A stretch of DNA of 64,000 bases from an uncultured Aquabacterium sp. (GCF_913773725.1 NZ_CAJYGK010000050.1:11962-75961), one strand, 5' to 3'; shown: positions 5,178 through 60,641, counted from the first letter of the stretch. Translations and numbers: made by a program. The notes: generated from the letters alone by a model not told the origin.

Positions 5178-8100
5178 GTGAGCATGACCCCACCGCATCC
5201 CCTGTCCCCCGCCACAGCGGACCCGCTGGCCGCCCCGCGTGCGCCAGCTTTGGTGCGCTTCGGCCCGCTGGCGTTGGCCGTTTCCACGCTGGCGGCGGTG
5301 AGCATGGGACTGATTGCCTGGTCACATGAGAGCTGGGGGCGACTGCAGGCCCGCACGCACCGGGTCGACACCCTGCTGTCGACGGTGCAGTACCAGGCCC
5401 GCTTCAGCGTGCTCGAAACCGAGCAGCGGGTGATGGGCCTGCCCACCGCGCGCAGTGAAGCCCCGTATCAAGCGATGACCGAGGCGCTCGCCCTCGCCCG
5501 GACCCTGCACGAGGAGTCACCCGAAGATCTGCGCCCTGCGATGCGAGCGCTCATCGACGAGCTGGAGTCGGCAGCCGATGCGGTTCGGGCGCGCACCCTG
5601 GCCCCGCCAGCCCTGGACGCCAGCGGGCTGCGCCGGGCCCTGGACCAGGTGGATGCGGCCGTGCAGCACGCCACCCGGCAATGGGACGACACCCTGCGGG
5701 CCGACACCACCACGCAGCGGCGCTTCGACCACCTGAACATCGCCCTGGTCGGCGTGGTGACGCTGCTGCTCATCGGCCTGATGCGCCGTGCCGACCGACA
5801 GCGCACCAGCACCGCACGCAAACTCACCGCACGCGACGCCCAGCTCCGCGCCTTTGCAGAAGTCCTGCCCGACCTGGCCTTCCGCATGGACGCGCAGGGC
5901 ACGTTTCTCGACGTCTACGGCAACAACCTGCCCTTGCTGGGGCGCCCTCCGGAGGCCATTCTGGGTCGCCCGCTGTCTTCGCTGTTTCCGGCCGAGATGA
6001 CACAGCGCTTCACGGATGTGATCGACCAGACCCTGCACACCCGGCGCACGCAGTCGCTGAGCTTCTCGGTGCGCATCCACGACGACCTGCGGCACTTCGA
6101 CAGCCGTTGCGCGCCCGTGGGCGACACCCCCGAGGTGGTCTGGATGATCTGGGACATCACCGCCCACCGCCAGACGGAAAAGCGGCTGCGCCACAAGACC
6201 CGGCTGTACGACTTCCTCAGCCACGTCAACCAGTCCATCGTCCGCTCGGCCGACGAGGCTTCGCTGCTGGCCCGGGTATGCCGGGTGGCGATCGAGCACG
6301 GCCAGTTCCGCAAGGCCTGGGTGGTGCTGCATGGAGACGACCCGCTGCAACTGCGCTGCCAGGCTGTCGCCGGCGATGACACCCCCGAGCGCCCGCAGCT
6401 CGACTTCGACCTGCCGCCAGATGCGCAGCAGGACAGCGCACTCGAAGCCGCACTGCGCCAAGGCCACACCTATTGCAGCAGCGACCTGGGGCGCCTGCCT
6501 CGGCGCCCCGATTGGGCCGACGCCGCGATCGCCACCGGCCTGCCCGGCTGCGTGACGGTCCCTCTGCGCCGCGACGAGCGCCTGATCGGTCACCTCGTGC
6601 TGCTGGGCCGGCGCGTGAACGACCAGGCCGAAGACCTGCTGACCCTGTTCGACGACCTGGCCAAGGACCTGTCTTTCGCGCTCACCAACCTGCACCGGGA
6701 GGCCCTGCGCCACCAGGCCGAAGAACGCATCCGCCTGCACGCCGCCGCGCTGGAGAGCACCCGGGACGGCATGATGGTGCTGTCCCAGGACCGCGTGGTG
6801 GTGTCGGTCAATGCCGCTTTCACCACCCTGACGGGCTGGCGCGAGGAAGAGGTGATCGGCCGCGTCCCGGACTTCCTGCTGCCGGACGACCCCACCGTCA
6901 CGCTCGACGACATCCGCGAAGGCCTGCTGCGCGATGGCAGCTGGCAGGGCGAAATGTGGTTCCAGCGGCAGAGCGGCGAGCTGTTCATGACCAAGCTGTC
7001 CGTCAGCGCGGTACACAACAAGGATGGTCGCCCCACCCATTTCGTGGGCGTGTTCACCGACATCACCCAGCTCAAGCAGACGGAAGAGCGCCTGGCCCGC
7101 ATGGCGCACTTCGACACCCTCACCGAGTTGCCCAACCGGGGCATGATCCACCAGCGACTGACCCACGCCCTCAGCCTGGCCCAGCGCCACCACACGCTGG
7201 TGGGCGTGGTCTTCATCGACCTGGACAACTTCAAGACCGTGAACGACGGCCTGGGCCACGCCGCCGGCGACAGCCTGCTGCGCCAGGTGGCCAGCCGCCT
7301 GCGGGCCCGCGTTCGTCAGGAAGACACCCTGGGCCGCCTGGGCGGCGACGAGTTCATCCTTGTGCTCGAGCACCTGCGCCACCCGCAACAGGCCGCACAC
7401 GTGGCCTCGGCCATCCTCGACACCCTGCAGCAGCCCTTCACCCTCGATGGCGGCGAGCAGGTGTACGTGCGCGCCTCGATCGGCATCAGCCTCTTCCCGA
7501 ACGACGGGCAGGAGGCCGCCGACCTGATCCGCAACGCCGACGCGGCGATGTACGAATCGAAGCGACGCGGCCGCAACAGCTTCAGCTTCTACACCGAGTC
7601 CTTCACCAGCGACGCCACCTCGCGCCTGCTGCTGGAAACCCGCCTGCGCCGGGCCATGGAACAGGGCGACTTCCTGCTGCACTACCAGCCGCAGATCAGG
7701 CTGAGCGACCGCCGCATCACCGCGGTCGAGGCGCTGGTGCGCCTGCGCCCGCCCTCGGGCAGCGGCGAGTTCATGGCGCCCGTCAGCCCGCACCAGTTCA
7801 TCCCGGTGATGGAAGACACAGGGATGATCGTGGCGCTGGGCGAATGGGTGCTGACCGAAGCTTGCCGCCAGGGCCGCGCCTGGCTGGATGCCGGACTGGA
7901 CTTCGGCCGCATGTCGGTCAACCTGTCGCCCTCGGAGATCCGCCGTGGCGGCGTCGTGGAGCGCGTGTCACGCATCCTGCGGGAAACCGGCCTGCCGCCG
8001 CACCGGCTCGAGCTCGAGATCACCGAAAGCGGCCTGATGGAGTCCGGCGGCAACACCGAGCAGTTCCTGCACATGCTGCACGGGCTCGGCGTCACCCTCA

Positions 8101-15292: not shown

Positions 15293-15369
15293 TGGCGGAG
15301 TGGACGGGACTCGAACCCGCGACCCCCGGCGTGACAGGCCGGTATTCTAACCGACTGAACTACCACTCC
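15293..15369 (-). tRNA. tRNA-Asp(GTC), copy 2
   Basis: GGAGTGGTAGTTCAGTCGG...CTGTCAC...GGTTCGAGTCC...CCA, 77 nt. Confidence 0.97.
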
Positions 15370-15429
15370 GCGTCGGTGACGACTTCGGCTTCACATGCAA
15401 GCATGCTCAACCCAAGTGCCGTCAAAACT

Positions 15430-15505
15430 TGGCGTCCCCTAGGGGATTCGAACCCCTGTAGTCACCGTGAAAGGGTGGTGTCCTAGGCCTCTAGACGAAG
15501 GGGAC
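15430..15505 (-). tRNA. tRNA-Glu(TTC), copy 2
   Basis: GTCCCCTTCGTCTAGAGG...CTTTCAC...GGTTCGAATCC...CCA, 76 nt. Confidence 0.97.
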
Positions 15506-15590
15506 TCCGTCTCAACAAATTGTATCTGACACAAACCGTCTCGCTACCGGCCCTGACGCCACCGACCAACAGGACACCCTGTCGGCATTC

Positions 15591-15666
<76 letters not shown>

Positions 15667-15760
15667 GTTCGTGTTGCCACGTTCAGGGCGCCAGACTGGC
15701 ACCGAGACTGTTTCCATCAACGGCGTTGCTGTGTCACCAGCAACGCCCATTCAAAAGAAC

Positions 15761-15837
15761 TGGCGGAGTGGACGGGACTCGAACCCGCGACCCCCGGCGT
15801 GACAGGCCGGTATTCTAACCGACTGAACTACCACTCC
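15761..15837 (-). tRNA. tRNA-Asp(GTC), copy 1
   Basis: Same sequence as 15293-15369. Confidence 0.97.
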
Positions 15838-15888
15838 GCGTCGGTAACGACTTTGCTGACATCGCTGCCAGCCAAGTGCCGTCAAACT

Positions 15889-15964
15889 TGGCGTCCCCTA
15901 GGGGATTCGAACCCCTGTAGTCACCGTGAAAGGGTGGTGTCCTAGGCCTCTAGACGAAGGGGAC
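15889..15964 (-). tRNA. tRNA-Glu(TTC), copy 1
   Basis: Same sequence as 15430-15505. Confidence 0.97.
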
Positions 15965-16039
15965 TGAATTCCTTCATGCAACCTGATCGACGCTCTACCC
16001 GACACACTCTGCAACCAGACACCGACCAGATTGCTCTGG

Positions 16040-16115
<76 letters not shown>

Positions 16116-49625: not shown

Positions 49626-49688
49626 GTCGTCATCGACGACCCCGACCGTTTGACTGCTGAATCAACCTCTGACCAGGAGATCCCATCC

Positions 49689-50852
49689 ATGAGCGCCACG
49701 CCCGAGACCACCACGCCCGGTTTCAAGCCCAAGAAGTCCGTTGCCCTGTCGGGCACCGCGGCCGGCAACACCGCGCTGTGCACCGTGGGCCGTACCGGCA
49801 ATGACCTGGCCTACCGCGGCTACGACATCCTGGACGTCGCCACGACCTGCGAGTTCGAGGAGATCGCCCACCTGCTGGTGCACGGCAAGCTGCCCAACGT
49901 GGCCGAACTGGCTGGCTACAAGGCCAAGCTGAAGTCGCTGCGCGGCCTGCCCGCCGCCGTGAAGGTGGCACTGGAGCAACTGCCCCCTTCGAGCCACCCG
50001 ATGGACGTGATGCGCACCGGCGTGTCGGTGCTCGGTTGCGTCAAGCCCGAGAAGGAAGACCACAACCACCCGGGCGCCCGCGACATCGCCGACAAGCTGA
50101 TGGCCTCGCTGGGCTCGATGCTGCTGTACTGGTACCACTTTGCCTACAACGGCAAGCGCATCGAGGTGGAAACCGACGACGACTCGATCGGCGGCCACTT
50201 CCTGCACCTGCTGCACGGCGAAAAGCCGCGTGACAGCTGGGTGCGCGCGATGCACACCTCGCTGATCCTGTACGCAGAGCACGAATTCAACGCCTCGACC
50301 TTCACCTCGCGCGTGGTGGCCGGCACGGGTTCGGACATGTACTCGGCGCTGTGCGGTGGCATTGGCGCCCTGCGTGGCCCGAAGCACGGCGGCGCCAACG
50401 AAGTGGCCTTCGAGATCCAGAAGCGCTACGACAACCCGGATGAGGCCGAGGCCGACATCCGCGCCCGCGTGGAACGCAAGGAAGTCGTGATCGGCTTCGG
50501 CCACCCCGTCTACACCGTGAGCGACCCGCGCAACGTGGTCATCAAGAAGGTGGCCGAGGACCTGTCGAAGGAACAGGGCAACATGAAGATGTACAACATC
50601 GCCGAGCGCCTGGAATCGGTGATGTGGGACATCAAGAAGATGTTCCCGAACCTCGACTGGTTCAGCGCCGTGAGCTATCACATGATGGGCGTGCCCACCG
50701 ACATGTTCACCCCGCTGTTCGTGATCGCACGCACCTCGGGCTGGTCGGCCCACATCATCGAGCAGCGCATCGACGGCAAGATCATCCGCCCGAGCGCCAA
50801 CTACGTCGGCCCCGAAGACCAGGTCTTCGTGCCGCTGAAGGACCGCAAGTAA
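49689..50852 (+). CDS. prpC: 2-methylcitrate synthase
   Basis: [44 protein letters not shown]. Confidence 0.96.
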
Positions 50853-50864
50853 GCAGGCCAGAGG

Positions 50865-50899
50865 AAGGCGCCACATTGCCCCGGGTGATGTGGCGCCTT
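50865..50899. other. Intercistronic hairpin between prpC and acnD
   Basis: AAGGCGCCACAT-11 nt-ATGTGGCGCCTT. Confidence 0.7.
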
Positions 50900-50992
50900 T
50901 CTGCCTTGTGGCGGCGCGACGCTGCCACCCCGAACCGACGTCTGCCCCGACGCCCCGATCGTCCGCCCCACTTTGCTGACTGCCCCACGGCC

Positions 50993-53614
50993 ATGAGCAA
51001 CATCAACACCCAATACCGCAAGCCGCTGCCCGGCACGAACCTCGATTACTTCGACACGCAAGCTGCCGTCGAAGCCATCCAGCCCGGCGCCTGGGCCACC
51101 CTGCCCTACACCGCCCGCGTGCACGCCGAGAACATCGTGCGCAAGGCCGATCCGGCCATCGTCACCGATTGCCTCAAGCAGATCGTCGAGCGCAAGCGCG
51201 ACCTGGACTTCCCCTGGTTCCCGGCCCGCGTGGCGTGCCACGACATCCTGGGTCAGACCGCCCTGGTGGACCTGGCCGGCCTGCGTGACGCCATCGCCAA
51301 GGAAGGCGGCGACCCGGCCAAGGTGAACCCCGTGGTGCCCGTGCAGCTGATCGTGGACCACTCGCTGGCCGTGGAGTGCGGCGGCTTCGACCCGCAAGCC
51401 TTCCAGAAGAACCGCGACATCGAAGAGCGCCGCAACGAAGACCGCTTCCACTTCATCGAGTGGACGAAGAAGGCCTTCGCCAACGTGGACGTGATCCCCG
51501 CGGGCAACGGCATCATGCACCAGATCAACCTGGAGAAGATGTCGCCGGTGATCCATGCCGACAACGGCGTGGCCTACCCCGACACCTGCGTCGGCACCGA
51601 CTCGCACACCCCGCACGTGGACGCGCTGGGCGTGATCGCCATCGGCGTGGGCGGCCTGGAAGCCGAGAACGTGATGCTGGGCCGCGCCTCGTGGATGCGC
51701 CTGCCTGAAATCGTGGGTGTGAAGCTGACCGGCCAGCGCCAACCCGGCATCACCGCCACCGACGTGGTCCTGGCCCTGACCGAGTTCCTGCGCAAGAACA
51801 AGGTGGTGGGTGCTTACCTCGAGTTCTACGGCGAAGGTGCGTCGAAGCTGACGATTGGCGACCGCGCCACCATCTCGAACATGGCCCCCGAATACGGCGC
51901 CACCGCCGCCATGTTCAGCATCGACGAACAGACGCTGGAGTACCTGACGCTGACCGGCCGCACCGCCGAGCAGGTCAAGCTGGTCGAAACCTATGCCAAG
52001 ACCGCCGGCCTGTGGTCCGACAGCCTGAAGAACGCCGTGTACGAGCGCAACCTGGAGTTCGACCTGTCGAGCGTGGTGCGCAACATGGCCGGCCCGTCGA
52101 ACCCGCACGCCCGTGTGGCCACGTCGGATCTGGCCTCGAAGGGCATTGCCGGCCAATGGCAGATGCCGGCTGCCGGTGAAGGCACCATGCCCGACGGCGC
52201 CGTGATCATCGCGGCCATCACGTCGTGCACCAACACCTCCAACCCGCGCAACGTGATCGCCGCCGCCCTGCTGGCCCGCAACGCCAACAAGCTGGGCCTG
52301 ACGCGCAAGCCCTGGGTGAAGTCGTCGCTGGCCCCTGGCTCGAAGGCGGTGGAGCTGTACCTGAAGGAAGCCAACCTGCTGGGCGACCTGGAAAAGCTCG
52401 GCTTCGGCATCGTGGCCTTTGCCTGCACGACCTGCAACGGCATGTCGGGCGCGCTCGATCCGAAGATCCAGCAAGAGATCATCGACCGTGATCTGTACGC
52501 CACCGCCGTGCTCTCGGGCAACCGCAACTTCGATGGCCGCATCCACCCGTATGCCAAGCAGGCCTTCCTGGCCTCGCCCCCGCTGGTGGTGGCCTACGCG
52601 ATCGCCGGCACCGTGCGCTTCGACATCGAAAACGACGTGCTGACCGTGGTCGACGGCAAGGAAATCCGCCTCAAGGACATCTGGCCTTCTGACGAAGAGA
52701 TCGACGCCGTGGTGAAGGCCGCCGTGAAGCCCGAGCAGTACCGCGCGGTCTACGAGCCCATGTTCGCCATCCAGGCCGACAAGGGCGAGAAGGTGAGCCC
52801 GCAGTACGACTGGCGCCCGATGTCGACCTACATCCGTCGCCCGCCCTATTGGGACACCGAAGGCGTCGGCGCCCTGGCTGCCAACCCGCGCACGCTGAAA
52901 GCCATGCGCCCGCTGGCCATCCTGCCGGACAACATCACAACCGACCACCTGTCGCCGTCGAACGCCATCCTGCCGAACTCGGCGGCGGGCGAGTACCTGC
53001 ACAAGATGGGTCTACCGGAAGAGGACTACAACTCCTACGCCACCCACCGCGGCGACCACCTGACCGCCATGCGCGCCACCTTCGCCAACCCCACGCTCAA
53101 GAACGAGATGGTGCGCAAGGAAGACGGCAGCATCAAGGTGGGCTCGTGGGCCCGCGTGGAGCCCGAAGGCCAGGTGATGCGCATGTGGGAGGCCATGGAG
53201 ACCTACCTCAACCGCCGCCAGCCGCTGATCATCATCGCGGGCGCCGACTACGGTCAGGGCTCGTCGCGTGACTGGGCCGCCAAGGGTGTGCGTCTGGCCG
53301 GTGTGGAAACCGTCGTGGCCGAAGGCTTCGAGCGAATCCACCGCACCAACCTGATCGGCATGGGCGTGCTGCCGCTGGAGTTCAAGCCGGGCACCACCCG
53401 CCTGACCCTGGGCCTGGACGGCACCGAAACCTTCGACGTCGAAGGCGACCTCAAGCCCCGCGCCGACCTGACCCTGGTGATCCACCGCAAGAACGGTCAG
53501 ACCGAGCGCGTGACCGTGACCAGCCGCCTGGACACCGCCGAAGAAGTGTCGGTGTACGAAGCCGGTGGCGTGCTGCAGCGTTTCGCCCAGGACTTCCTGG
53601 CGGCGAACAAGTGA
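50993..53614 (+). CDS. acnD: Fe/S-dependent 2-methylcitrate dehydratase
   Basis: NTQYRKPLPG, RVACHDILGQTALVDLAG, AAITSCTNTSNPRNV, ACTTCNGMSG, TTDHLSPS. Confidence 0.95.
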   Translation: MSNINTQYRKPLPGTNLDYFDTQAAVEAIQPGAWATLPYTARVHAENIVRKADPAIVTDCLKQIVERKRDLDFPWFPARVACHDILGQTALVDLAGLRDAIAKEGGDPAKVNPVVPVQLIVDHSLAVECGGFDPQAFQKNRDIEERRNEDRFHFIEWTKKAFANVDVIPAGNGIMHQINLEKMSPVIHADNGVAYPDTCVGTDSHTPHVDALGVIAIGVGGLEAENVMLGRASWMRLPEIVGVKLTGQRQPGITATDVVLALTEFLRKNKVVGAYLEFYGEGASKLTIGDRATISNMAPEYGATAAMFSIDEQTLEYLTLTGRTAEQVKLVETYAKTAGLWSDSLKNAVYERNLEFDLSSVVRNMAGPSNPHARVATSDLASKGIAGQWQMPAAGEGTMPDGAVIIAAITSCTNTSNPRNVIAAALLARNANKLGLTRKPWVKSSLAPGSKAVELYLKEANLLGDLEKLGFGIVAFACTTCNGMSGALDPKIQQEIIDRDLYATAVLSGNRNFDGRIHPYAKQAFLASPPLVVAYAIAGTVRFDIENDVLTVVDGKEIRLKDIWPSDEEIDAVVKAAVKPEQYRAVYEPMFAIQADKGEKVSPQYDWRPMSTYIRRPPYWDTEGVGALAANPRTLKAMRPLAILPDNITTDHLSPSNAILPNSAAGEYLHKMGLPEEDYNSYATHRGDHLTAMRATFANPTLKNEMVRKEDGSIKVGSWARVEPEGQVMRMWEAMETYLNRRQPLIIIAGADYGQGSSRDWAAKGVRLAGVETVVAEGFERIHRTNLIGMGVLPLEFKPGTTRLTLGLDGTETFDVEGDLKPRADLTLVIHRKNGQTERVTVTSRLDTAEEVSVYEAGGVLQRFAQDFLAANK

Positions 53615-53621
53615 CCTCTCC
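53612..53621 (+). repeat. Left copy of 10-bp direct repeat TGACCTCTCC (includes the acnD stop)
   Basis: Identical to 55798-55807. Confidence 0.85.
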
Positions 53622-53627
53622 GAGCGC

Positions 53628-53690
53628 CTTCGCCTCCCACAAGGAGGCGGAGCCCGGGCAAGCAAAGTCCACGAGGCTTTGCTTGCCTGG
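53628..53690 (+). other. Two adjacent hairpins in the cassette leader
   Basis: CGCCTCC-CACAA-GGAGGCG (53631-53649) and GGCAAGCAAAG-9 nt-CTTTGCTTGCC (53657-53687); no U tract follows. Confidence 0.75.
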
Positions 53691-53723
53691 CGGTGGCCGG
53701 GCCCCGTTCGCAAACCCGAAACC

Positions 53724-54560
53724 ATGCTGACTTCTCTGCGCATCCGTCACTTCCGGGCCTGGCAAGACACCGGGCCCGTGCGGCTCGCGCCGCTCACCGT
53801 GTTCTTCGGTGAGCACGGCACCGGCAAGAGCAGCCTGGGCCATGCACTGGCCCTGCTGGATCCGCACGCCCACGCGGCGGTGTCTGACCAGCAGGCTGGC
53901 TTTGCGCTGGATGCGGTGTGGCAAGCCGGCGGTCTGCGTGTCAGTCGACACCTTTCCGCGGCATCGGCGCCTGAGCCCACGCCAGCCACCCTCACCTTTG
54001 TCGACACCGGGGCACAGGGAAGCCGCATCCCGCTGCCTTCGGCCGGCGACCCGGCCGCGTCGCACTGGCTGCACGCCATGGGCCTGGATGCGCCCTCGAC
54101 GGCCTCGCAAACCGGCCGCAGTGCCCGCCATGCGCGGCACCTGCTGGCGAACCTCTTCGACACCCCGCACGGTGGCACGGTGTGGCTCGAGCACCCCGAG
54201 GCCCACCTGCATCCCAAGGCCCAGGCCGTGCTGGCCGACGCCCTGATTGCGGCGGTCCAGGCGACGGCCACAGGGGATCGCCCGGGCGTTCAGTGCATCG
54301 TCGAGAGCCACTCCGAAGCCCTGCTCAACCGCCTGCAGCGCCGCGTGGCCGAAGCGGTGATCCCGCCCGACGACCTCGCGCTGTACGTGTGCCGCCTGCG
54401 CGGCCCGCATGCCGAACTGGAGGCGCTGCGGCTCAACGCCTATGGCGACATCGAGAACTGGCCCGAAGACCTCTTCGGCCACGACATGACCGACATCACC
54501 GCCCGCGCGCTGGCCGCCCTGCGCCGCCGCCAGGCCGACACCGGGGAGCCCCAGGCATGA
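53724..54560 (+). CDS. ABC/AAA_21-type ATPase with DUF3696-like C-terminus, internally shortened (278 aa)
   Basis: MLTSLRIRHFRAW N-terminus, Walker A GEHGTGKS, Walker B/D-loop VWLEHPEAHLHP, H-loop IVESHSE, tail GDIENWPEDLFG. Confidence 0.8.
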   Translation: MLTSLRIRHFRAWQDTGPVRLAPLTVFFGEHGTGKSSLGHALALLDPHAHAAVSDQQAGFALDAVWQAGGLRVSRHLSAASAPEPTPATLTFVDTGAQGSRIPLPSAGDPAASHWLHAMGLDAPSTASQTGRSARHARHLLANLFDTPHGGTVWLEHPEAHLHPKAQAVLADALIAAVQATATGDRPGVQCIVESHSEALLNRLQRRVAEAVIPPDDLALYVCRLRGPHAELEALRLNAYGDIENWPEDLFGHDMTDITARALAALRRRQADTGEPQA

Positions 54561-55105
54561 AGGCGGTGATCGACACCAACGTGCTGCTGGTGGCCAACGG
54601 CCAGCATGCGGACGTTTCGCCCGGCTGCGTGGCCGCCTGCGTGGCGCACCTGCAGGCCATGCAGGCCAGCGGCGTGACGGTCATCGACGACGGCCATCGC
54701 ATCCTGGACGAGTACCTGCACAAGACCCAGGCCAACCGCCCCAAGGGCGTCGGCGACGTGTTCCTGAAATGGCTGCTTCGCCAGGTGGCCAATCCTCAGC
54801 GCGTCGAACAGGTGCCACTGACAGAGACCGGCGAGCAGACCTACGCCGAGTTCCCGTCGACCGCCCTGCAACCCCGCTTCGACCCATCCGACCGCAAGTT
54901 CGCCGCCGTCGCCCACGCCCACCCCGACAAGCCGCCCATCTGGGAAGCCGCCGACAGCAAGTGGCTGGACTGGTGGCCGGCCCTCAAGGCCTGCGGCGTG
55001 CAGGTCGAGTTCCTCTGCCCCGAAGACACGTGCGACTTCTACCGCAAGAAGTTTCCGGACCACCCGCTTCCGCCGCTGCCTCGCGCACCGGCCACCTCAG
55101 CATGA
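54557..55105 (+). CDS. PIN-domain-like putative ribonuclease (182 aa)
   Basis: N-terminal VIDTNVL and acidic residues D6, E52, D112, D133 (ILDEY, DPSDRKF, AADSKW); ATGA overlap with the ATPase. Confidence 0.72.
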   Translation: MKAVIDTNVLLVANGQHADVSPGCVAACVAHLQAMQASGVTVIDDGHRILDEYLHKTQANRPKGVGDVFLKWLLRQVANPQRVEQVPLTETGEQTYAEFPSTALQPRFDPSDRKFAAVAHAHPDKPPIWEAADSKWLDWWPALKACGVQVEFLCPEDTCDFYRKKFPDHPLPPLPRAPATSA

Positions 55106-55800
55106 CGGATTTCTTTCGCTTCCCGCACACCCCGCACATCGCCTGGCTGGCTGCCGGTGAACCGCGCGAGGACAAGGTGCTGTCGCCCGCCGAGGCCCAT
55201 GCCCTGCTGGCACACAAGGTCGTGGTCGAAGAGAAGCTCGACGGCGCGAACCTCGGCTTCTCGCTCGACGAGCACGGCGAGTTGCGTGCGCAGAACCGAG
55301 GGCAGTATCTGAGCGATCCGCACGCCGGCCAGTTCGCCCGCATCCCGATGTGGCTGCAGCAGCATGGCGACGCCTTGCTGGCCGAGCTGACACCGGACCT
55401 CATCTTCTTCGGCGAATGGTGCGCCGCGCGCCACTCGCTGGACTATGGCGCCCTGCCCGACTGGTTCCTGTTGTTCGACGTGTACGAACGCAGCCAGGGC
55501 CGCTTCTGGAGCACAGCCCGCCGCAATGCGCTGGCCGCCCGCGCCGGCCTGGTCACCGTGCCCCGCCTGTTCGAGGGCCACACCACACTGGACGCGCTCA
55601 AACTCATGGTGTCCAGCACCCCGAGTCGCTACCGCAACGGCCCGCTCGAAGGCATGGTGATCCGCCACGAATCCGAAACCTGGTGTGAAAACCGCGCCAA
55701 GCTCGTGCGCCCCGATTTCACCCAGGCCATCGACACCCACTGGCGCAAACGCGCCATCGAATGGAACCGCGTCGACCACGATGCGGCCTACCGCAACTGA
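55102..55800 (+). CDS. Minimal ATP-dependent RNA ligase (Rnl2-like nucleotidyltransferase core, 232 aa)
   Basis: Motif I EKLDG (K45), Ia QNRG, III FFGEW, IIIa FLLFDV, IV EGMVIR, V RAKLV; no OB-fold domain; ATGA overlap with the PIN gene. Confidence 0.85.
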   Translation: MTDFFRFPHTPHIAWLAAGEPREDKVLSPAEAHALLAHKVVVEEKLDGANLGFSLDEHGELRAQNRGQYLSDPHAGQFARIPMWLQQHGDALLAELTPDLIFFGEWCAARHSLDYGALPDWFLLFDVYERSQGRFWSTARRNALAARAGLVTVPRLFEGHTTLDALKLMVSSTPSRYRNGPLEGMVIRHESETWCENRAKLVRPDFTQAIDTHWRKRAIEWNRVDHDAAYRN

Positions 55801-55807
55801 CCTCTCC
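55798..55807 (+). repeat. Right copy of 10-bp direct repeat TGACCTCTCC (includes the ligase stop)
   Basis: Identical to 53612-53621. Confidence 0.85.
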
Positions 55808-55820
55808 ACCGGACACAGCC

Positions 55821-57008
55821 ATGGCACACGCACCCCAAGTCAAGATCCCGGCCACCTACATCCGCGGCGGCACCAGCAAGGGCGTCTTCTTCCGCCTGCA
55901 GGACCTGCCCGCAGCCTGCCAGGTTCCCGGCGAAGCGCGCGACAAGCTGTTCCTGCGCGTCATCGGCAGCCCCGACCCGTACGCGGCCCACATCGACGGC
56001 ATGGGCGGCGCCACGTCCAGCACCAGCAAGTGCGTGATCCTGTCGAAGGCCAGCCAGCCCGACCACGATGTGGACTACCTCTATGGCCAGATCTCGATCG
56101 ACAAGCCCTTCGTGGACTGGTCCGGCAACTGCGGCAACCTGTCCACCGCCGCGGGCGCCTTCGCGATCCACGCCGGCCTGGTCGACCCGGCCCGCATCCC
56201 GCAGAACGGCACGGCCGTGGTTCGCATCTGGCAGGCCAACATCGGCAAGACCATCATCGCGCACGTGCCCGTCACCAACGGCCAGGTGCAGGAAACCGGC
56301 GATTTCGAGCTCGATGGCGTGACCTTCCCGGCCGCTGAGATCGTGCTCGAGTTCATGGACCCATCCGACGATGGCGACGAAGGCGGCTCGATGTTCCCGA
56401 CCGGCAACCTGGTCGATGACCTTCTCGTTCCGGGCGTGGGCACACTGAAGGCAACGATGATCACGGCGGGCATTCCCACGGTCTTCGTCAATGCCAAGGA
56501 CATCGGCTACACCGGTACGGAACTGCGCGAGCAGATCAACAGCGACCCCGAAGCACTCAAGCGGTTCGAGGCGATCCGTGTGGCGGGTGCCCTGCGCATG
56601 GGCCTGATCAAGACCCCCGAAGAAGCCGCCACGCGCCAGCACACGCCCAAGATCGCCTTCGTCGCACCACCTCAGTCCTATGCCGCGTCCAGTGGCAAGA
56701 CGATCGAAGCCGGCGACATCGACCTGCTGGTGCGCGCGCTGTCGATGGGCAAGCTGCACCACGCGATGATGGGCACCTGCGCCGTCGCCATCGGCACCGC
56801 CGCAGCCATCCCGGGCACCCTGGTCAACCAGGCGGCCGGCGGCGGCGAACGCGAAGCCGTGCGCTTCGGCCACCCTTCCGGCACCCTGCGCGTCGGCGCC
56901 CAGGCAAAGCAGGTCGACGGGCAGTGGACGGTCACCAAGGCCATCATGAGCCGCAGCGCGCGCATCATCATGGAAGGCTGGGTGCGCGTGCCGGGCGACA
57001 CCTTCTGA
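55821..57008 (+). CDS. prpF: 2-methylaconitate cis-trans isomerase
   Basis: YIRGGTSKGVFF, GMGGATSSTSK, WSGNCGNL, HHAMMGT, RSARIIMEG. Confidence 0.96.
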   Translation: MAHAPQVKIPATYIRGGTSKGVFFRLQDLPAACQVPGEARDKLFLRVIGSPDPYAAHIDGMGGATSSTSKCVILSKASQPDHDVDYLYGQISIDKPFVDWSGNCGNLSTAAGAFAIHAGLVDPARIPQNGTAVVRIWQANIGKTIIAHVPVTNGQVQETGDFELDGVTFPAAEIVLEFMDPSDDGDEGGSMFPTGNLVDDLLVPGVGTLKATMITAGIPTVFVNAKDIGYTGTELREQINSDPEALKRFEAIRVAGALRMGLIKTPEEAATRQHTPKIAFVAPPQSYAASSGKTIEAGDIDLLVRALSMGKLHHAMMGTCAVAIGTAAAIPGTLVNQAAGGGEREAVRFGHPSGTLRVGAQAKQVDGQWTVTKAIMSRSARIIMEGWVRVPGDTF

Positions 57009-57221
57009 TCCCTCCGGCAGGACACGCCCCTCGCCCCGGGGGGCACGGCTTTCCACATGGCGTGATCCCGCGCACGGCCCGAGGGGTCTTGCGGTGTGCC
57101 GAAGCGGTCTTTCGGTGGCAATATCACGGGTGGCGTGCTGACTGCGATCGGGGAGGTTCCCCGCCCGTGCGGTCCGGCCCCGTCAACACCTGAATCACCC
57201 GCTGCCAGCCCCCCGCCTGCC

Positions 57222-57758
57222 ATGACCGCCTCCCTTCGTCACGCTCAGCGCATCCGCACCTTCGCCGTGTCTGCCGGCATCATGCTGGGCATGGCCCTGG
57301 CCACCCTGGCGCCGCAACTCGGTCATGCGGCCGAGGTGAAAAAGACCAAGCGCACGCTGGTCGAGAAGATTGTGGCGCTGCCCGAAGCCACCGTGGAGCA
57401 GCTGCAGGCCGCCGAGCGCGTGCTGATCGGCAAGTACCAGTGCGAATTCGGCAAGGCCGTGCAGATCGACCGGCATGCCCGCAACGATGGCTACTTCGAC
57501 CTGCGCCTCGGCCAGCAATCCTGGACGATGAAGCCCGTGCTGTCGTCGACCGGGGCCGTGCGCCTGGAGGACGTCAAGGGCGCGGCGCTGATGATCCAGA
57601 TCCTCACCAAATCGATGCTGATGGACCCGAAGCGTGGCCAGCGCCTGGTGGATGGCTGTGTGCATGACACGCAGCGGGCCGCCGAAGAGGACCTGCGCCG
57701 CAACCCGCGCCCCTCGGTCTTCGGCCTGAACAGCGACACGCCGGCCGACGGCAAGTGA
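57222..57758 (+). CDS. Secreted hypothetical protein, possibly MliC-like fold
   Basis: Signal peptide ending GHA-A; YQCEFG...SSTGAVRLED...DGC with two Cys. Confidence 0.7.
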   Translation: MTASLRHAQRIRTFAVSAGIMLGMALATLAPQLGHAAEVKKTKRTLVEKIVALPEATVEQLQAAERVLIGKYQCEFGKAVQIDRHARNDGYFDLRLGQQSWTMKPVLSSTGAVRLEDVKGAALMIQILTKSMLMDPKRGQRLVDGCVHDTQRAAEEDLRRNPRPSVFGLNSDTPADGK

Positions 57759-57966: not shown

Positions 57967-58046
57967 CTGCCCCGGGTCGAGCAGCACACCCGTTCTGCCC
58001 ACCGCGGTGAATCCTTTTCCGTCCCCGCCCCACAAAGGTGATCTTC

Positions 58047-60641
58047 ATGTTGCAAGCCTACCGTCAACACGTTGCCGAGCGCGCCGCGCTGGGCATCCCC
58101 CCGCTGCCCCTGTCGGCCCAGCAAGTCGCCGAGCTGATCGAGCTGATCAAGAATCCGCCGGCCGGCGAAGACGCTTTCCTGCTCGACCTGCTGACCCATC
58201 GCGTGCCGCCGGGCGTGGACGACGCCGCCAAGGTGAAGGCTTCCTTCCTGTCGGCCGTCGCCCATGGTGACCTGGCCGTGGCCCTGATCTCGAAGGCCAA
58301 GGCCACCGAGCTGCTGGGCACCATGGTCGGTGGCTACAACGTCAAGCCGCTGATCGACCTGCTGTCGGACGCCGAAGTCGGCACCGTGGCCGCCGAAGCC
58401 CTGAAGAAGACCCTGCTGATGTTCGACGCGTTCCACGACGTGGCCGAACTGGTCAAGGCCGGCAACGCCAACGCCAAGGCCGTGATGCAGTCGTGGGCCG
58501 ACGCCGAGTGGTTCACCAGCCGTCCGGAAGTCGCCAAGAAGATCACCGTGACCGTGTTCAAGGTGCCTGGCGAAACCAACACCGACGACCTGTCGCCCGC
58601 TCCCGATGCCTGGAGCCGTCCTGACATCCCGCTGCACTATCTGGCGATGCTCAAGAACACCCGTCCTGACGCGGCCTTCAAGCCCGAAGAAGACGGCAAG
58701 CGCGGCCCGATCCAGTTCATCGAAGACCTGAAGAAGAAGGGCAACCTGGTGGCCTACGTCGGCGACGTGGTCGGCACCGGCTCGTCGCGCAAGTCCGCCA
58801 CCAACAGCGTGATCTGGGCCACCGGCGAAGACATCCCCTTCGTGCCCAACAAGCGCTTCGGCGGCGTGACCCTGGGTGGCAAGATCGCCCCCATCTTCTT
58901 CAACACGCAAGAAGACTCTGGCTCCCTGCCCATCGAAGTGGACGTGTCCAAGATGGAAATGGGCGATGTCATCGACATCTTCCCCTATGACGGCAAGATC
59001 GAGAAGAACGGCGAAGTCATCGCCAACTTCCAACTGAAGTCGCAAGTGCTGCTGGACGAAGTCCAGGCTGGTGGCCGTATCAATCTGATCATCGGCCGCT
59101 CGCTGACCAGCAAGGCTCGTGAGTTCCTGGGCCTGCCCGCCTCCACCGTCTTCCGCCTGCCCCAGGCACCGGTCGACAGCGGCAAGGGCTTCACCCTGGC
59201 ACAGAAGATGGTCGGCCGCGCCTGCGGTCTGCCAGAAGGCAAGGGCGTGCGTCCGGGCACCTACTGCGAGCCCAAGATGACCACCGTTGGTTCGCAGGAC
59301 ACCACCGGCCCGATGACCCGTGACGAGCTGAAGGACCTGGCTTGCCTGGGCTTCTCGGCCGACCTGGTCATGCAGTCGTTCTGCCACACCGCGGCTTATC
59401 CGAAGCCCGTGGACGTGAAGATGCACCGCGAACTGCCCGCCTTCATCTCGAACCGCGGCGGCGTGGCCCTGCGTCCGGGCGACGGCGTGATCCACTCGTG
59501 GCTGAACCGCATGCTGTTGCCCGACACCGTCGGCACCGGTGGCGACTCGCACACCCGCTTCCCGATCGGCATCTCCTTCCCCGCTGGTTCGGGCCTGGTC
59601 GCCTTCGGCGCCGCCACCGGCGTGATGCCGCTGGACATGCCTGAGTCGGTGCTGGTGCGCTTCAAGGGCCAAATGCAGCCTGGCGTCACCCTGCGTGACC
59701 TGGTGCATGCCATCCCCTTGTACGCCATCAAGGCTGGTCTGCTGACCGTGGCCAAGGCCGGCAAGAAGAACATCTTCTCGGGCCGCATCCTGGAAATCGA
59801 AGGTCTGCCTGACCTGAAGGTCGAGCAAGCGTTCGAGTTGTCTGACGCTTCCGCTGAGCGTTCGGCTGCTGGTTGCACCATCAAGCTGAACAAGGAGCCC
59901 GTGGCCGAGTACCTGAAGTCGAACATCGTTCTGATGAAGAACATGATCGCCAACGGTTACCAGGACGCCCGCACCCTGGAGCGCCGCATCAAGGCCCAGG
60001 AAGCTTGGTTGGCCAACCCCAACCTGCTGGAAGCCGATGCCGACGCGGAATACGCTGCCGTCATCGAGATCGACCTGAACGACATCAAGGAGCCGATCGT
60101 CTGCTGCCCGAACGACCCGGACGACGCCAAGTTCCTGTCCGAAGTCGCTGGCACCAAGATCGACGAAGCCTTCATCGGTTCGTGCATGACCAACATCGGT
60201 CACTTCCGCGCCGCCGGCAAGCTGCTGGAAGGCAAGAAGGACATCCCGGTGCGTCTGTGGGTGGCACCGCCCACCAAGATGGACGCCGCCGAGCTGACCA
60301 AGGAAGGCTACTACAACACCTTCGGCCAAGCCGGTGCCCGCACCGAAATGCCGGGCTGCTCGCTGTGCATGGGTAACCAGGCTCAGATCAAGGAAGGCTC
60401 GACCTGTATCTCCACGTCGACCCGTAACTTCCCGAACCGCCTGGGCAAGAACACCAACGTGTTCCTGGGCTCGGCCGAACTGACCGCCGTCGCGTCCAAG
60501 CTGGGCAAGCTGCCGACCCCGGCCGAGTACATGGCTGAAATCGGTGTGGTGGCCAAGGATGCCGACAACGTCTACAAGTACATGAACTTCAACCAGATTG
60601 AAGAGTACGTGGAGACGGCCAAGTCGGTCAGCGCCGCCTGA
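58047..60641 (+). CDS. acnB: Aconitate hydratase 2 / 2-methylisocitrate dehydratase
   Basis: [54 protein letters not shown]. Confidence 0.97.

What the first reader, a model, noticed from the sequence alone, without database searches (positions are those of the whole stretch)
53724..55800. Candidate new RNA cut-and-repair conflict system: ATPase + PIN nuclease + RNA ligase
Seen: three genes chained by ATGA overlaps (54557-54560, 55102-55105), indicating translational coupling. They encode an ABC/AAA_21 ATPase with a DUF3696-like tail (GEHGTGKS, LEHPEAHLHP, ESHSE), a PIN-like protein with four acidic residues (D6/E52/D112/D133) and an ATP-dependent ligase core (EKLDG, FFGEW, LFDV, EGMVIR, RAK). 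None has a role in methylcitrate metabolism. Established: ABC ATPase + nuclease pairs are a recurring anti-phage design (PARIS AriA/AriB, Gabija, Septu); PIN/VapC proteins cleave tRNA or rRNA; Rnl2-type ligases repair RNA breaks. Inference: the ATPase gates a PIN RNase and the ligase reseals the cut, giving reversible dormancy or self-immunity rather than one-way abortive infection. I know of no named system with this exact trio, but could not run a search to confirm novelty.
Basis: partly seen in the sequence, partly recalled or inferred. Interest (0 to 1): 0.88.

Follow-up and report, generated by a model that had tools for sequence, protein, structure and literature searches.

The report
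ATPase–PIN defence cassette with RNA ligase
The three overlapping genes are real and form a widespread variant of a known anti-phage pair (HEC-03, an ABC ATPase plus a PIN nuclease) that also carries its own RNA ligase, but in this genome the ATPase has lost its central third and the cassette sits fixed inside a propionate-catabolism operon.

Summary
Three + strand genes (53724-54560, 54557-55105, 55102-55800) are joined by ATGA overlaps between acnD and prpF.

**What the genes are**
- Genes 1 and 2 match the PADLOC models of HEC-03 (E 1.7e-41 and 2.9e-28). HEC-03 is a two-gene ABC-ATPase + PIN system already shown to block phages, so the core is not new.
- Gene 3 is a PF09414 RNA ligase (E 5e-34) with all nucleotidyl-transferase motifs invariant. 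No PADLOC model matches it, and I found no paper describing it with HEC-03.

**How widespread the trio is**
- The ligase lies directly after the PIN gene in 75 of 80 species-representative genomes.
- It also follows PIN relatives only 31-52% identical, while other HEC-03-like pairs lack it. It is therefore a frequent but optional third module.

- The window's ATPase is 278 aa, against about 460 aa in orthologues. It lacks the Q-loop-equivalent and signature regions.
- This short form defines an Aquabacterium-type lineage always placed acnD|trio|prpF. PIN and ligase are under purifying selection there, and the ATPase centre is hypervariable.

**Ligase role**
Resealing of PIN-made RNA breaks is plausible but unproven, and the end chemistry is uncertain.

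Verdict: new variant of a known kind.

The parts
53724..54560 (+). Reduced ABC ATPase with DUF3696 tail (278 aa). It is the HEC-03-type ATPase lacking about 186 central residues: Insert 1, the Q-loop-equivalent 'LGPLR', Insert 2 and the 'GFGVSQ' signature.
   Evidence: PADLOC HEC-03B 1.7e-41, matched in two stretches only. Pfam AAA_15, AAA_21 and DUF3696. Alignment to 464-465 aa orthologues. tblastn matches only residues 1-45 and 327-456 of the full-length protein in any frame. The short clade has 13 clusters of 247-326 aa.
53859..54143 (+). Hypervariable centre of the ATPase gene (about codons 46-140).
   Evidence: dN/dS is about 0.63 here, against 0-0.1 for codons 1-45. Nucleotide identity to L112 is 58-75% with in-frame indels, while the DNA from 54450 to 57000 is 100% identical.
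54557..55105 (+). PIN-like nuclease (182 aa), the HEC-03-type effector. Acidic residues D6, E52, D112 and D133; conserved Cys24, Cys28, Cys154 and Cys159.
   Evidence: PADLOC HEC-03A 2.9e-28 over 1-157 of 159 model positions. 36% identity, E 8e-26, to the experimentally tested P. cichorii HEC-03 PIN. AF2 pLDDT 79.8, with top Foldseek hits to PIN/VapC structures. Family-wide conservation of the acidic residues. dN/dS 0.11-0.2.
55102..55800 (+). Stand-alone ATP-dependent RNA-ligase-type nucleotidyltransferase (232 aa). Motif I K45; motifs III, IIIa, IV and V conserved. It has no extra C-terminal or OB domain.
   Evidence: Pfam PF09414 5.2e-34. Invariant K45, E105, F125/D126, E183/G184 and K200 across homologues. 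The weak best PDB relatives are the Rnl3 ligases 2vug and 5d1o. dN/dS 0.07-0.19. No PADLOC match.
53628..53690 (+). Two adjacent strong hairpins in the acnD-ATPase intergenic gap. They may be a transcript-end or processing element, or an insertion boundary.
   Evidence: RNA fold -57.6 kcal/mol, z = -3.4, with 0 of 200 shuffles folding as well. The sequence is identical in L011 and L012. There is no T-run, so the terminator scan did not call it.
51014..53614 (+). acnD-type aconitase. It is the upstream flank of the cassette and not part of it.
   Evidence: ORF and translation. 99.8% identical to the L012 upstream gene.
55821..57008 (+). prpF. It is the downstream flank, starting 20 bases after the ligase stop codon.
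   Evidence: ORF. Pfam PrpF on the orthologous neighbours in L010, L112 and L115.

Best explanation
The cassette is a three-gene form of the HEC-03 anti-phage system.

**The family in general**
- In full-length versions, a roughly 460-aa ABC ATPase with a DUF3696 C-terminal tail holds and controls a PIN-domain nuclease. This is inferred by analogy with Menshen NsnB-NsnC and PARIS AriA-AriB.
- On infection the nuclease is licensed to cut nucleic acid, most likely tRNA or rRNA, and this stops phage growth.
- The third gene encodes a minimal ATP-dependent RNA ligase that is co-translated with the PIN protein.
- Its most likely job is to rejoin 3'-OH/5'-phosphate breaks made by the metal-dependent PIN enzyme. 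That would either mop up leaky self-damage or let survivors recover.
- This fits the absence of any end-healing kinase or phosphatase in the operon, whereas the ligase's nearest out-group relatives are paired with an HD-Pnk end-healing enzyme.
- The ligase is an accessory part, not a core part, because validated and natural two-gene versions exist.

**This window's copy (Aquabacterium-type genome)**
- The cassette was inserted once between acnD and prpF and has been inherited vertically.
- Its ATPase has shrunk to about 250-330 aa. It keeps the Walker A segment, Walker B, the H-loop and the DUF3696 tail. It has lost the Q-loop-equivalent and, in most alleles, the signature motif.
- The local ATPase therefore probably still binds the PIN protein but no longer works as a canonical ATP-sandwich sensor.

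**Status of each step**
- Shown: gene identities, linkage, conservation and selection.
- Inferred: the ATPase-PIN contact, an RNA target, and the ligase's repair role.
For: **HEC-03 identity**
- PADLOC hits.
- 36% identity to the tested P. cichorii PIN.
- The paper reports that both genes are needed for defence and that induction is toxic.

**Linkage of the ligase**
- It lies immediately downstream of the PIN gene in 75 of 80 species-representative genomes.
- It is present on Aeromonas, Azotobacter, Tistrella and Rhodococcus plasmids.
- It follows PIN relatives at 52%, 40% and 31% identity.
- It is absent from others.

**Defence context**
- Embedded after an Hma-type helicase and methylase in about 18 of 80 loci.
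- Beside AbiEii, Hok and GASH genes on plasmids.

**Active sites**
- The PIN acidic residues are conserved across 68 representatives.
- The ligase motifs are invariant.

**Ligase relatives**
- Ligases at 30-35% identity sit next to HD + AAA_33 proteins, the HD-Pnk repair cassette (PMC6097658).

**Selection**
- dN/dS is 0.07-0.2 for PIN and ligase, and 0-0.1 for the ATPase N-terminus.

**Short-ATPase lineage**
-.

**Tail-to-PIN contact**
- The DUF3696-to-PIN contact comes from AlphaFold 3 modelling of Menshen in PMC12065111.
Against: - The two-gene HEC-03 defends without a ligase, so repair is not needed for immunity.
- One laboratory reports that VapC-family products carry 5'-OH ends (PMC6459853). 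A bare ATP-dependent ligase cannot join such ends.
- The Runella ligase from the related HD-Pnk cassette formed enzyme-AMP but sealed none of the 3'-OH/5'-PO4 substrates tried (PMC6097658).
- The ligase structure prediction was poor (pLDDT 46), so nothing could be learned about substrate binding.
- No target RNA, no protein-protein contact and no phage phenotype has been measured for any three-gene member.
- In this window the ATPase lacks motifs normally needed for ABC ATP hydrolysis, so the local copy may not defend at all.
Confidence: 0.5

Rival explanations
1. The ligase is part of the attack rather than the repair. After PIN cleavage it circularises or mis-joins the fragments, or leaves 5'-adenylylated ends. 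The damage then cannot be undone by phage-encoded repair enzymes such as Pnkp with Rnl1 or Rnl2.
For: - The weak best solved relatives are the Rnl3 enzymes Pab1020 and MthRnl.
- JGI names family members 'ATP-dependent RNA circularization protein'.
- The protein is a bare nucleotidyltransferase domain without the extra domains that Rnl2 or Rnl5 carry; from my own knowledge, not checked here, those domains are used for nick sealing.
- The related Runella ligase adenylylates itself but does not seal standard nicks.
- Phages themselves carry ligases of this superfamily, so a repair-defying step would have selective value.
Against: - The nearest out-group relatives sit in HD-Pnk end-healing cassettes, which are read as repair pathways.
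- No biochemical evidence exists for either direction.
- The two-gene system is already toxic and protective without the ligase.
Confidence: 0.15
2. In this genome the cassette is a defence relic that has been domesticated or is decaying. With its sensor inserts gone, the ATPase is only a tether or antitoxin for the PIN protein. The trio then behaves as a toxin-antitoxin-like addiction or stress module co-transcribed with the prp operon, not as a phage sensor.
For: - About 186 residues are lost, including the Q-loop-equivalent and signature regions.
- The position acnD|trio|prpF is fixed across alleles whose ATPase is only 49-65% identical to the window's.
- No promoter or terminator consensus lies inside 53400-56100, and only 20 bases separate the ligase stop from prpF.
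- The ATPase centre has relaxed dN/dS of about 0.63 and many indels.
- The family also occurs next to Hok and AbiE on plasmids.
Against: - All observed alleles keep an open frame despite many indels.
- Walker A, Walker B and the H-loop stay invariant.
- The sharply localised divergence of the ATPase centre, in strains otherwise 100% identical downstream, looks as much like diversifying selection on a recognition surface as like decay.
- PIN and ligase are under strong purifying selection.
Confidence: 0.2
3. The PIN-like protein acts on DNA, or on RNA-DNA hybrids, in the manner of a FEN-like 5' nuclease. The 'RNA ligase' then seals host DNA or hybrid nicks, so the system targets phage DNA replication rather than translation.
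For: - The PIN-like superfamily includes DNA flap nucleases, and the Foldseek list includes Exo1 at low rank.
- About 16 of 80 loci carry an HNH_2 endonuclease just after the ligase, within DNA-modification-based Hma systems.
- Some PF09414 members in phages are annotated as DNA ligase.
Against: - The best structural matches are VapC-type RNases and archaeal PIN domains.
- Payne et al. describe the HEC-03 PIN as VapC-like.
- The HNH gene tracks the Hma methylase rather than the trio.
Confidence: 0.08
4. The ligase is an independent RNA-repair gene that merely travels with HEC-03. It protects the host from other RNA-cutting toxins and has no functional tie to the PIN protein.
For: - The ligase is dispensable in validated and natural two-gene systems.
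- Relatives work in separate repair cassettes.
Against: - Linkage with overlapping or abutting reading frames persists from 31% to 99% PIN identity and across phyla.
- The order is always ATPase-PIN-ligase.
- The ligase of this clade (at least 55% identity) was seen only in this context.
Confidence: 0.07

Closest known systems
HEC-03 (Hma-embedded candidate 03; Payne, Hughes, Fineran & Jackson 2024, bioRxiv 10.1101/2024.01.29.577857; PADLOC models PDLC04147/PDLC04148)
   Same: An ABC ATPase with a DUF3696 tail is followed by an overlapping gene for a VapC-like PIN protein. Both window proteins hit the HEC-03 models best (1.7e-41 and 2.9e-28). Relatives of the trio are embedded in Hma helicase-methylase systems, just as HEC-03 is.
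   Different: The tested system has two genes and no ligase. Here, and in 75 of 80 close relatives, a PF09414 RNA ligase follows the PIN gene. The window's ATPase is 278 aa rather than about 460 aa. The window's PIN is only 36% identical to the tested one.
Menshen (NsnA-NsnB-NsnC)
   Same: NsnB is the same kind of ABC ATPase with a DUF3696 tail (PADLOC NsnB 8.5e-29). Its tail is predicted to bind a PIN-like domain of the partner (PMC12065111).
   Different: There is no ParB/DUF262 sensor NsnA. Menshen's PIN-like domains are catalytically dead and fused to another nuclease, whereas this PIN keeps its acidic residues and stands alone. Menshen has no ligase.
PARIS (AriA-AriB), and OLD, Gabija and Septu ABC-ATPase + nuclease systems
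   Same: The logic is the same: an ABC ATPase sensor is paired with a metal-dependent nuclease. PARIS releases a tRNA-cutting effector.
   Different: The effector here is a PIN domain, not Toprim or HNH. The AriA and GajA models hit much more weakly (9e-14 or worse). None of those systems encodes a ligase.
HD-Pnk / LIG bacterial repair cassette (Munir & Shuman 2017; described in PMC6097658)
   Same: The ligase belongs to the same PF09414 branch. Relatives at 30-35% identity sit beside HD + P-loop kinase end-healing enzymes.
   Different: No HD-Pnk is present here. The partner genes are a nuclease and an ABC ATPase. The ligase here is shorter (232 aa against about 285 aa).
PrrC anticodon nuclease countered by phage T4 Pnkp + Rnl1
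   Same: It is a cut-and-reseal contest over tRNA between defence and repair.
   Different: In that case the ligase belongs to the phage and undoes host defence. Here the host operon itself carries the ligase. PrrC is a HEPN nuclease that leaves cyclic-phosphate ends needing healing.
VapBC toxin-antitoxin pairs
   Same: A PIN-domain RNase-like protein with the D-E-D-D acidic set, toxic when over-produced.
   Different: There is no VapB-type DNA-binding antitoxin. The upstream partner is an ABC ATPase. The PIN protein has extra inserts and a conserved cysteine set.

Membership tests
HEC-03 (PADLOC / Payne et al. 2024) | The PIN-like protein matches the HEC-03 PIN model over its full length. | tested here: met
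   PDLC04147 E 2.9e-28, residues 1-160 against model positions 1-157 of 159. BLASTP to the tested P. cichorii protein gives 36% identity, E 8e-26.
HEC-03 (PADLOC / Payne et al. 2024) | The ABC ATPase with DUF3696 tail matches the HEC-03 ATPase model. | tested here: met
   PDLC04148 E 1.7e-41 is the best of 91 PADLOC hits. Pfam DUF3696 2e-5.
HEC-03 (PADLOC / Payne et al. 2024) | A complete ABC ATPase of about 460 aa with Insert 1, the Q-loop-equivalent, Insert 2 and the signature motif. | tested here: not met
   The window protein is 278 aa. Only residues 1-45 and about 140-271 align, and 'LGPLR' and 'GFGVSQ' are absent. The feature is met in 460-aa orthologues elsewhere.
HEC-03 (PADLOC / Payne et al. 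2024) | The two genes are adjacent, on the same strand and overlapping. | tested here: met
   ATGA overlap at 54557-54560. The same junction is seen in relatives.
HEC-03 (PADLOC / Payne et al. 2024) | Protects against phage, with both genes required. | not testable with these tools
   Shown only for the P. cichorii two-gene system. No three-gene member has been tested.
ATP-dependent RNA ligase, PF09414 (Rnl2/Rnl3/Rnl5 superfamily) | Nucleotidyltransferase motifs I (KxDG), III, IIIa, IV and V. | tested here: met
   Pfam 5.2e-34, 118 bits against a cut-off of 27. K45, E105, F125/D126, E183/G184 and K200 are invariant in 18 homologues.
T4 Rnl2 / Rnl5 proper | An accessory domain: the Rnl2 C-terminal domain or the Rnl5 N-terminal OB fold. 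| tested here: not met
   The protein is 232 aa and the ligase domain spans 39-201. There is no other Pfam match. The PDB profile search finds only weak Rnl3 hits, E 0.011-0.055.
ATP-dependent RNA ligase | Seals 3'-OH/5'-PO4 RNA ends. | not testable with these tools
   No biochemistry is available. The related Runella cassette ligase did not seal the tested substrates (PMC6097658).
PIN-domain nuclease | A PIN fold with four conserved acidic residues. | tested here: met
   AF2 pLDDT 79.8. Top Foldseek hits are 3i8o, 1w8i, VapC20 (5wzf) and VapC2 (3zvk), with probability 0.95-0.99 but TM only 0.41-0.59. D112 and D133 are invariant, and D6 and E52 are at least 90% conserved across 68 representatives. 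Pfam PIN_3 alone is below threshold.
VapBC toxin-antitoxin | A small upstream antitoxin with a DNA-binding domain. | tested here: not met
   The upstream gene is the ABC ATPase, and there is no other small ORF partner.
Menshen (NsnABC) | A ParB/DUF262 NsnA, and an NsnC with an inactive PIN domain plus a nuclease domain. | tested here: not met
   Neither is present in the window or in related loci. The PIN here keeps its acidic residues.
PARIS (AriA/AriB) | A Toprim AriB effector. | tested here: not met
   There is no Toprim gene. The AriA models hit only at 9e-14 and 3.5e-10, well below HEC-03B.
HD-Pnk/LIG repair cassette | An adjacent HD phosphoesterase + P-loop kinase. | tested here: not met
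   It is absent from the window and from trio loci. It is present beside more distant ligase relatives.

The most novel reading that the evidence does not exclude
The ligase-bearing HEC-03 form is a self-healing immune module. The PIN nuclease makes clean 3'-OH/5'-phosphate cuts in essential host RNA on infection. The co-translated ligase rejoins them once the trigger is gone. The response is then a reversible arrest rather than suicide, which would make this the first defence operon known to carry its own repair enzyme. In the Aquabacterium lineage the module has in addition been captured by a metabolic operon. Its ATPase has been cut down to a P-loop, a Walker B/H-loop region and a DUF3696 tail around a hypervariable centre. 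This may represent a new minimal recognition or tether domain.
Probability: 0.3. Interest if true: 0.8.

Novelty: new variant of a known kind. Interest (0 to 1): 0.6.

Why it matters
Many anti-phage systems that cut tRNA or rRNA are assumed to kill or permanently arrest the infected cell. A defence operon that regularly carries its own RNA ligase would make a different idea directly testable: that some of these responses are built to be reversible, or are buffered against self-damage.

The cassette has only three small genes and is found in hundreds of genomes. A validated two-gene relative is available as a control.

The window also offers a natural experiment. In one lineage the ABC ATPase has been whittled to about 60% of its length while the nuclease and ligase stay under strong selection. 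That could show which parts of this ATPase class are needed to hold the effector and which are needed to sense phage.

If the ligase proves unrelated to PIN activity, the finding reduces to another HEC-03 locus.

Tried and rejected
- **Ligase structure.** The AlphaFold2 model built from an 18-sequence alignment was poor (pLDDT 46), so I ran no fold search on it.
- **PDB sequence searches.** The search with the PIN profile returned only spurious de novo TIM-barrel and Sir3 hits. For the ligase it returned only marginal Rnl3 hits.
- **NCBIfam.** It gave no meaningful names.
- **Promoter and terminator scan.** The consensus scan of 53400-56100 found nothing. This cannot settle whether the trio is co-transcribed with the prp genes.
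- **Papers not held.** Two papers most likely to have described such contexts could not be read: Burroughs & Aravind 2016 on RNA repair systems, and Krishnan et al. 2020 on ABC ATPases. Prior description there cannot be excluded.
- **Full-text searches.** Searches for DUF3696 with ligase, and for RNA ligase with PIN and anti-phage terms, found no description of the trio. The held parts of the supplementary tables of the HEC paper do not mention an RNA ligase, but several files were cut when stored.
- **Recent frameshifted pseudogene, rejected.** I considered that the short ATPase might be one. No other frame shows similarity to the missing part. The short form is also shared by 13 clusters down to 45% identity.
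- **Phage or prophage origin, rejected.** No PIN homologue was found in 50,697 phage records.
- **PIN cleavage-end chemistry.** My search for it turned up a statement that VapC products carry 5'-OH. This contradicts the textbook expectation for metal-dependent PIN enzymes, and I could not resolve it.
Full report
**1. The observation**

The window holds three + strand ORFs at 53724-54560 (278 aa), 54557-55105 (182 aa) and 55102-55800 (232 aa). They are joined by ATGA start/stop overlaps at exactly the stated positions. All quoted motifs are present.

- Upstream: prpC (49650-50852) and an acnD-type aconitase (51014-53614).
- Downstream: prpF starts 20 bases after the ligase stop codon (55821-57008), followed by acnB (58038-60641).

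**2. What the proteins are**

Pfam gives the following matches:

| Gene | Pfam match | E-value |
|---|---|---|
| 1 | AAA_15 | 4.5e-13 |
| 1 | AAA_21 | 7e-10 |
| 1 | DUF3696 | 2e-5 |
| 2 | PIN_3 (sub-threshold) | 0.046 |
| 3 | RNA_ligase PF09414 | 5.2e-34 |

Against PADLOC, gene 1 matches HEC-03B best (1.7e-41). Gene 2 matches HEC-03A over its whole length (2.9e-28). Gene 3 matches nothing.

HEC-03 is one of the 'Hma-embedded candidates' of Payne et al. (bioRxiv 10.1101/2024.01.29.577857).
- It consists of an ABC ATPase and a VapC-like PIN protein from Pseudomonas cichorii ATCC 10857.
- It was cloned as two genes, both of which are required for protection of E. coli.
- It is toxic when induced.
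- The window's PIN protein is 36% identical to that tested protein (E 8e-26).

The PIN assignment is supported by structure and conservation.
- An AlphaFold2 model of the window protein (pLDDT 79.8) finds PIN and VapC structures first: 3i8o, 1w8i, VapC20 and VapC2, with probability 0.95-0.99. TM-scores are modest at 0.41-0.59 because of inserts.
- Across 68 family representatives at 35-68% identity, D44, Y53, D112 and D133 are invariant. D6, T7, N8 and E52 are at least 90% conserved.
- The nuclease site therefore looks intact. This differs from the dead PIN-like domains of Menshen NsnC (PMC12065111).

The ligase keeps K45 (motif I), E105, F125/D126, E183/G184 and K200 in every homologue aligned.
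- It is a bare nucleotidyltransferase domain.
- Its only, marginal, solved relatives are the Rnl3 enzymes Pab1020 and MthRnl.
- Its structure prediction failed (pLDDT 46).

**3. Is the trio a unit?**

Yes, for the close family. The PIN protein has 1,830 database homologues, and 1,133 clusters at 50% identity.

A scan of one genome per species returned 80 loci with PIN identity of 61-99%.
- tblastn found the ligase directly after the PIN gene in 75 of them.
- It found an ATPase of about 460 aa directly before the PIN gene in nearly all.
- Hosts are mostly Beta- and Gammaproteobacteria, with some Alphaproteobacteria and Cyanobacteria.

The same trio sits in several other settings.
- It is in the Xanthomonas translucens chromosome and in a gammaproteobacterial MAG, after an SNF2 helicase and a 1,333-aa methylase.
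- It is on Aeromonas conjugative plasmids beside AbiEii, Hok/Gef and a GTPase-associated system.
- It is on Azotobacter and Tistrella plasmids.
- It is on a Rhodococcus plasmid where the PIN is only 31% identical.

More distant PIN representatives split into two groups.
- Those at 52% and 40% identity have the ligase.
- Four others lack it: an Acinetobacter soli plasmid copy at 55%, which has an HNH gene instead, and copies at 43%, 38% and 37%.

About 18 of the 80 loci have an Hma-type methylase ending right before the ATPase. These tend also to have an HNH_2 gene after the ligase. The trio is therefore itself 'Hma-embedded', and the HNH gene probably belongs to the surrounding system.

No PIN homologue was found in 50,697 phage records.

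Conclusion: the ligase is a frequent, old but optional third module of the HEC-03 design.

**4. What the ligase's relatives do**

Plasmid-borne ligases 30-35% identical to the window's are each followed by a protein with an HD domain and an AAA_33 P-loop kinase domain. They come from Pseudomonas aeruginosa, Variovorax and Bosea.

- The clade is therefore associated with break repair.
- In that cassette the ends need healing. In the HEC-03 trio no kinase or phosphatase is present.
- That fits a metal-dependent nuclease that leaves 3'-OH/5'-phosphate ends.

Two cautions apply.
- The Runella ligase formed enzyme-AMP but sealed none of the standard substrates tried.
- The Woychik laboratory states that VapC products carry 5'-OH (PMC6459853).

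**5. The local peculiarity**

The window's ATPase is 278 aa. Aligned with 464-465 aa orthologues, it keeps several parts:
- the first 45 residues, including Walker A (GEHGTGKS);
- the last approximately 140 residues, including Walker B (WLEHPE), the H-loop (ESHSE) and the DUF3696 tail.

About 186 residues between them are missing. These include 'LGPLR', which is the Q-loop equivalent as in NsnB, and the 'GFGVSQ' signature. No other frame holds remnants of the missing part.

This is not a one-off.
- The short form occurs in 13 database clusters of 247-326 aa, down to 45% identity.
- Every locus I could inspect has the order acnD|short ATPase|PIN|ligase|prpF.
- The nearest genomes are Aquabacterium olei and an uncultured Aquabacterium, with PIN 99% and 97% identical.
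- One 326-aa allele still keeps a 'GLGVSQVLP' signature remnant, which suggests stepwise reduction.

Pairwise dN/dS values within this lineage:

| Gene or region | dN/dS |
|---|---|
| PIN | 0.11-0.2 |
| Ligase | 0.07-0.19 |
| ATPase codons 1-45 | 0-0.1 |
| ATPase codons 46-140 | about 0.63 |
| ATPase C-terminal part | 0.13-0.48 |

Contig L112 is especially informative.
- It is 100% identical in nucleotide sequence to the window from about 54450 to 57000, which covers PIN, ligase and prpF.
- It is about 96% identical across acnD.
- It is only 58-75% identical, with in-frame indels, in the ATPase centre.

The centre is thus a sharply bounded hypervariable or mosaic segment. This is compatible with relaxed constraint on a linker or with diversifying selection on a recognition surface, and I cannot tell which.

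All alleles seen keep the frame open and keep Walker A, Walker B and the H-loop. However, database proteins are biased towards intact genes.

**6. Mechanism**

Shown:
- gene identities, order and coupling;
- wide conservation and defence-island or embedded contexts;
- intact catalytic motifs;
- purifying selection on PIN and ligase.

Inferred:
- The ATPase holds the PIN protein through its DUF3696 tail. This is by analogy with AlphaFold 3 models of Menshen NsnB-NsnC and with the PARIS logic.
- The PIN protein cuts RNA, as a VapC-like fold suggests.
- The ligase rejoins PIN-made breaks.

I rate HEC-03-type identity as very likely. I rate the repair role as the single most likely reading of the ligase, but only at roughly even odds.

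Rivals are:
- a repair-defying, offensive ligase that circularises, mis-joins or adenylylates fragments;
- a DNA or hybrid target;
- simple hitch-hiking;
- for this genome, a domesticated or decaying toxin-antitoxin-like remnant whose ATPase no longer senses anything.

**7. Novelty**

- I found no description of the three-gene form with the ligase in the searchable literature. The held parts of the supplements of the HEC paper also do not mention it.
- The ligase has no PADLOC model.
- Two key comparative-genomics papers could not be read, so prior mention cannot be ruled out.
- The reduced-ATPase lineage fixed in a prp operon also appears undescribed.

I class the finding as a new variant of a known kind, of moderate to good interest.

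**8. Verdict**

- Observation: confirmed.
- Interpretation: partly supported.
- Interest: 0.6.

The most useful experiments are phage plating and toxicity or recovery assays of a full-length trio with and without an active ligase, and chemistry-specific mapping of the RNA ends.

Noticed in passing
window 53628-53690: Two adjacent perfect hairpins (10-bp and 16-bp stems) fill most of the 109-base gap between acnD and the ATPase gene. Fold energy is -57.6 kcal/mol, z = -3.4. There is no T-run, so they do not form a classical terminator. The sequence is identical in L011 and L012. L009 and L112 have a different sequence at the same place, which I did not fold.
   Followed up: partly
window 53850-54450 compared with L112:1290-1800: The ATPase centre is only 58-75% identical between two contigs that are 100% identical over the next 2.5 kb. 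This is a sharply bounded hypervariable or recombinant segment.
   Followed up: partly
window 54557-55105 (PIN residues C24, C28, C154, C159): Cys24, Cys28 and Cys154 are at least 90% conserved across the whole family. In the pairwise alignment the tested P. cichorii HEC-03 PIN has Cys at the positions matching all four, Cys159 included. This suggests a zinc site or disulfide linking the first long helix to the C-terminal segment.
   Followed up: no
window 15293-16115 (- strand): A tandemly duplicated tRNA cluster, Asp(GTC)-Glu(TTC)-Ala(GGC) twice, with a unit of about 470 bases.
   Followed up: no
L001:609-4610 and 7233-8000; L092:1-7284; about 18 of loci L013-L090: In about a quarter of relatives the trio is nested between an SNF2 helicase plus a 1,333-aa MmeI-like methylase (Hma-type) and an HNH_2 endonuclease. 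The HNH gene tracks the methylase rather than the trio.
   Followed up: partly
L094:4956-6974; L095:4965-7458; L097:5082-7015: [quoted passage not shown] On a P. aeruginosa plasmid this cassette is flanked on both sides by IS21 copies.
   Followed up: partly
L100:1048-8528: A distant ATPase-PIN pair (PIN 37% identical) is preceded by a second AAA_21/AAA_23 ATPase plus a 101-aa gene. It is followed by a 563-aa protein with no Pfam match and then by SbcD/SbcC. This may be a different multi-gene variant.
   Followed up: no
window 50801-53002 and 53451-54482 (- strand): Very long antisense ORFs (733 and 343 aa) lie opposite acnD and the ATPase gene. They are typical artefacts of high G+C DNA. A gene caller appears to have picked such an antisense ORF in L010 (991 aa on the - strand).
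   Followed up: no
window 57096-57758 (+): A 220-aa ORF lies between prpF and acnB. I did not analyse it. Short ORFs of 129-178 aa occupy the same position in L010, L112 and L115.
   Followed up: no
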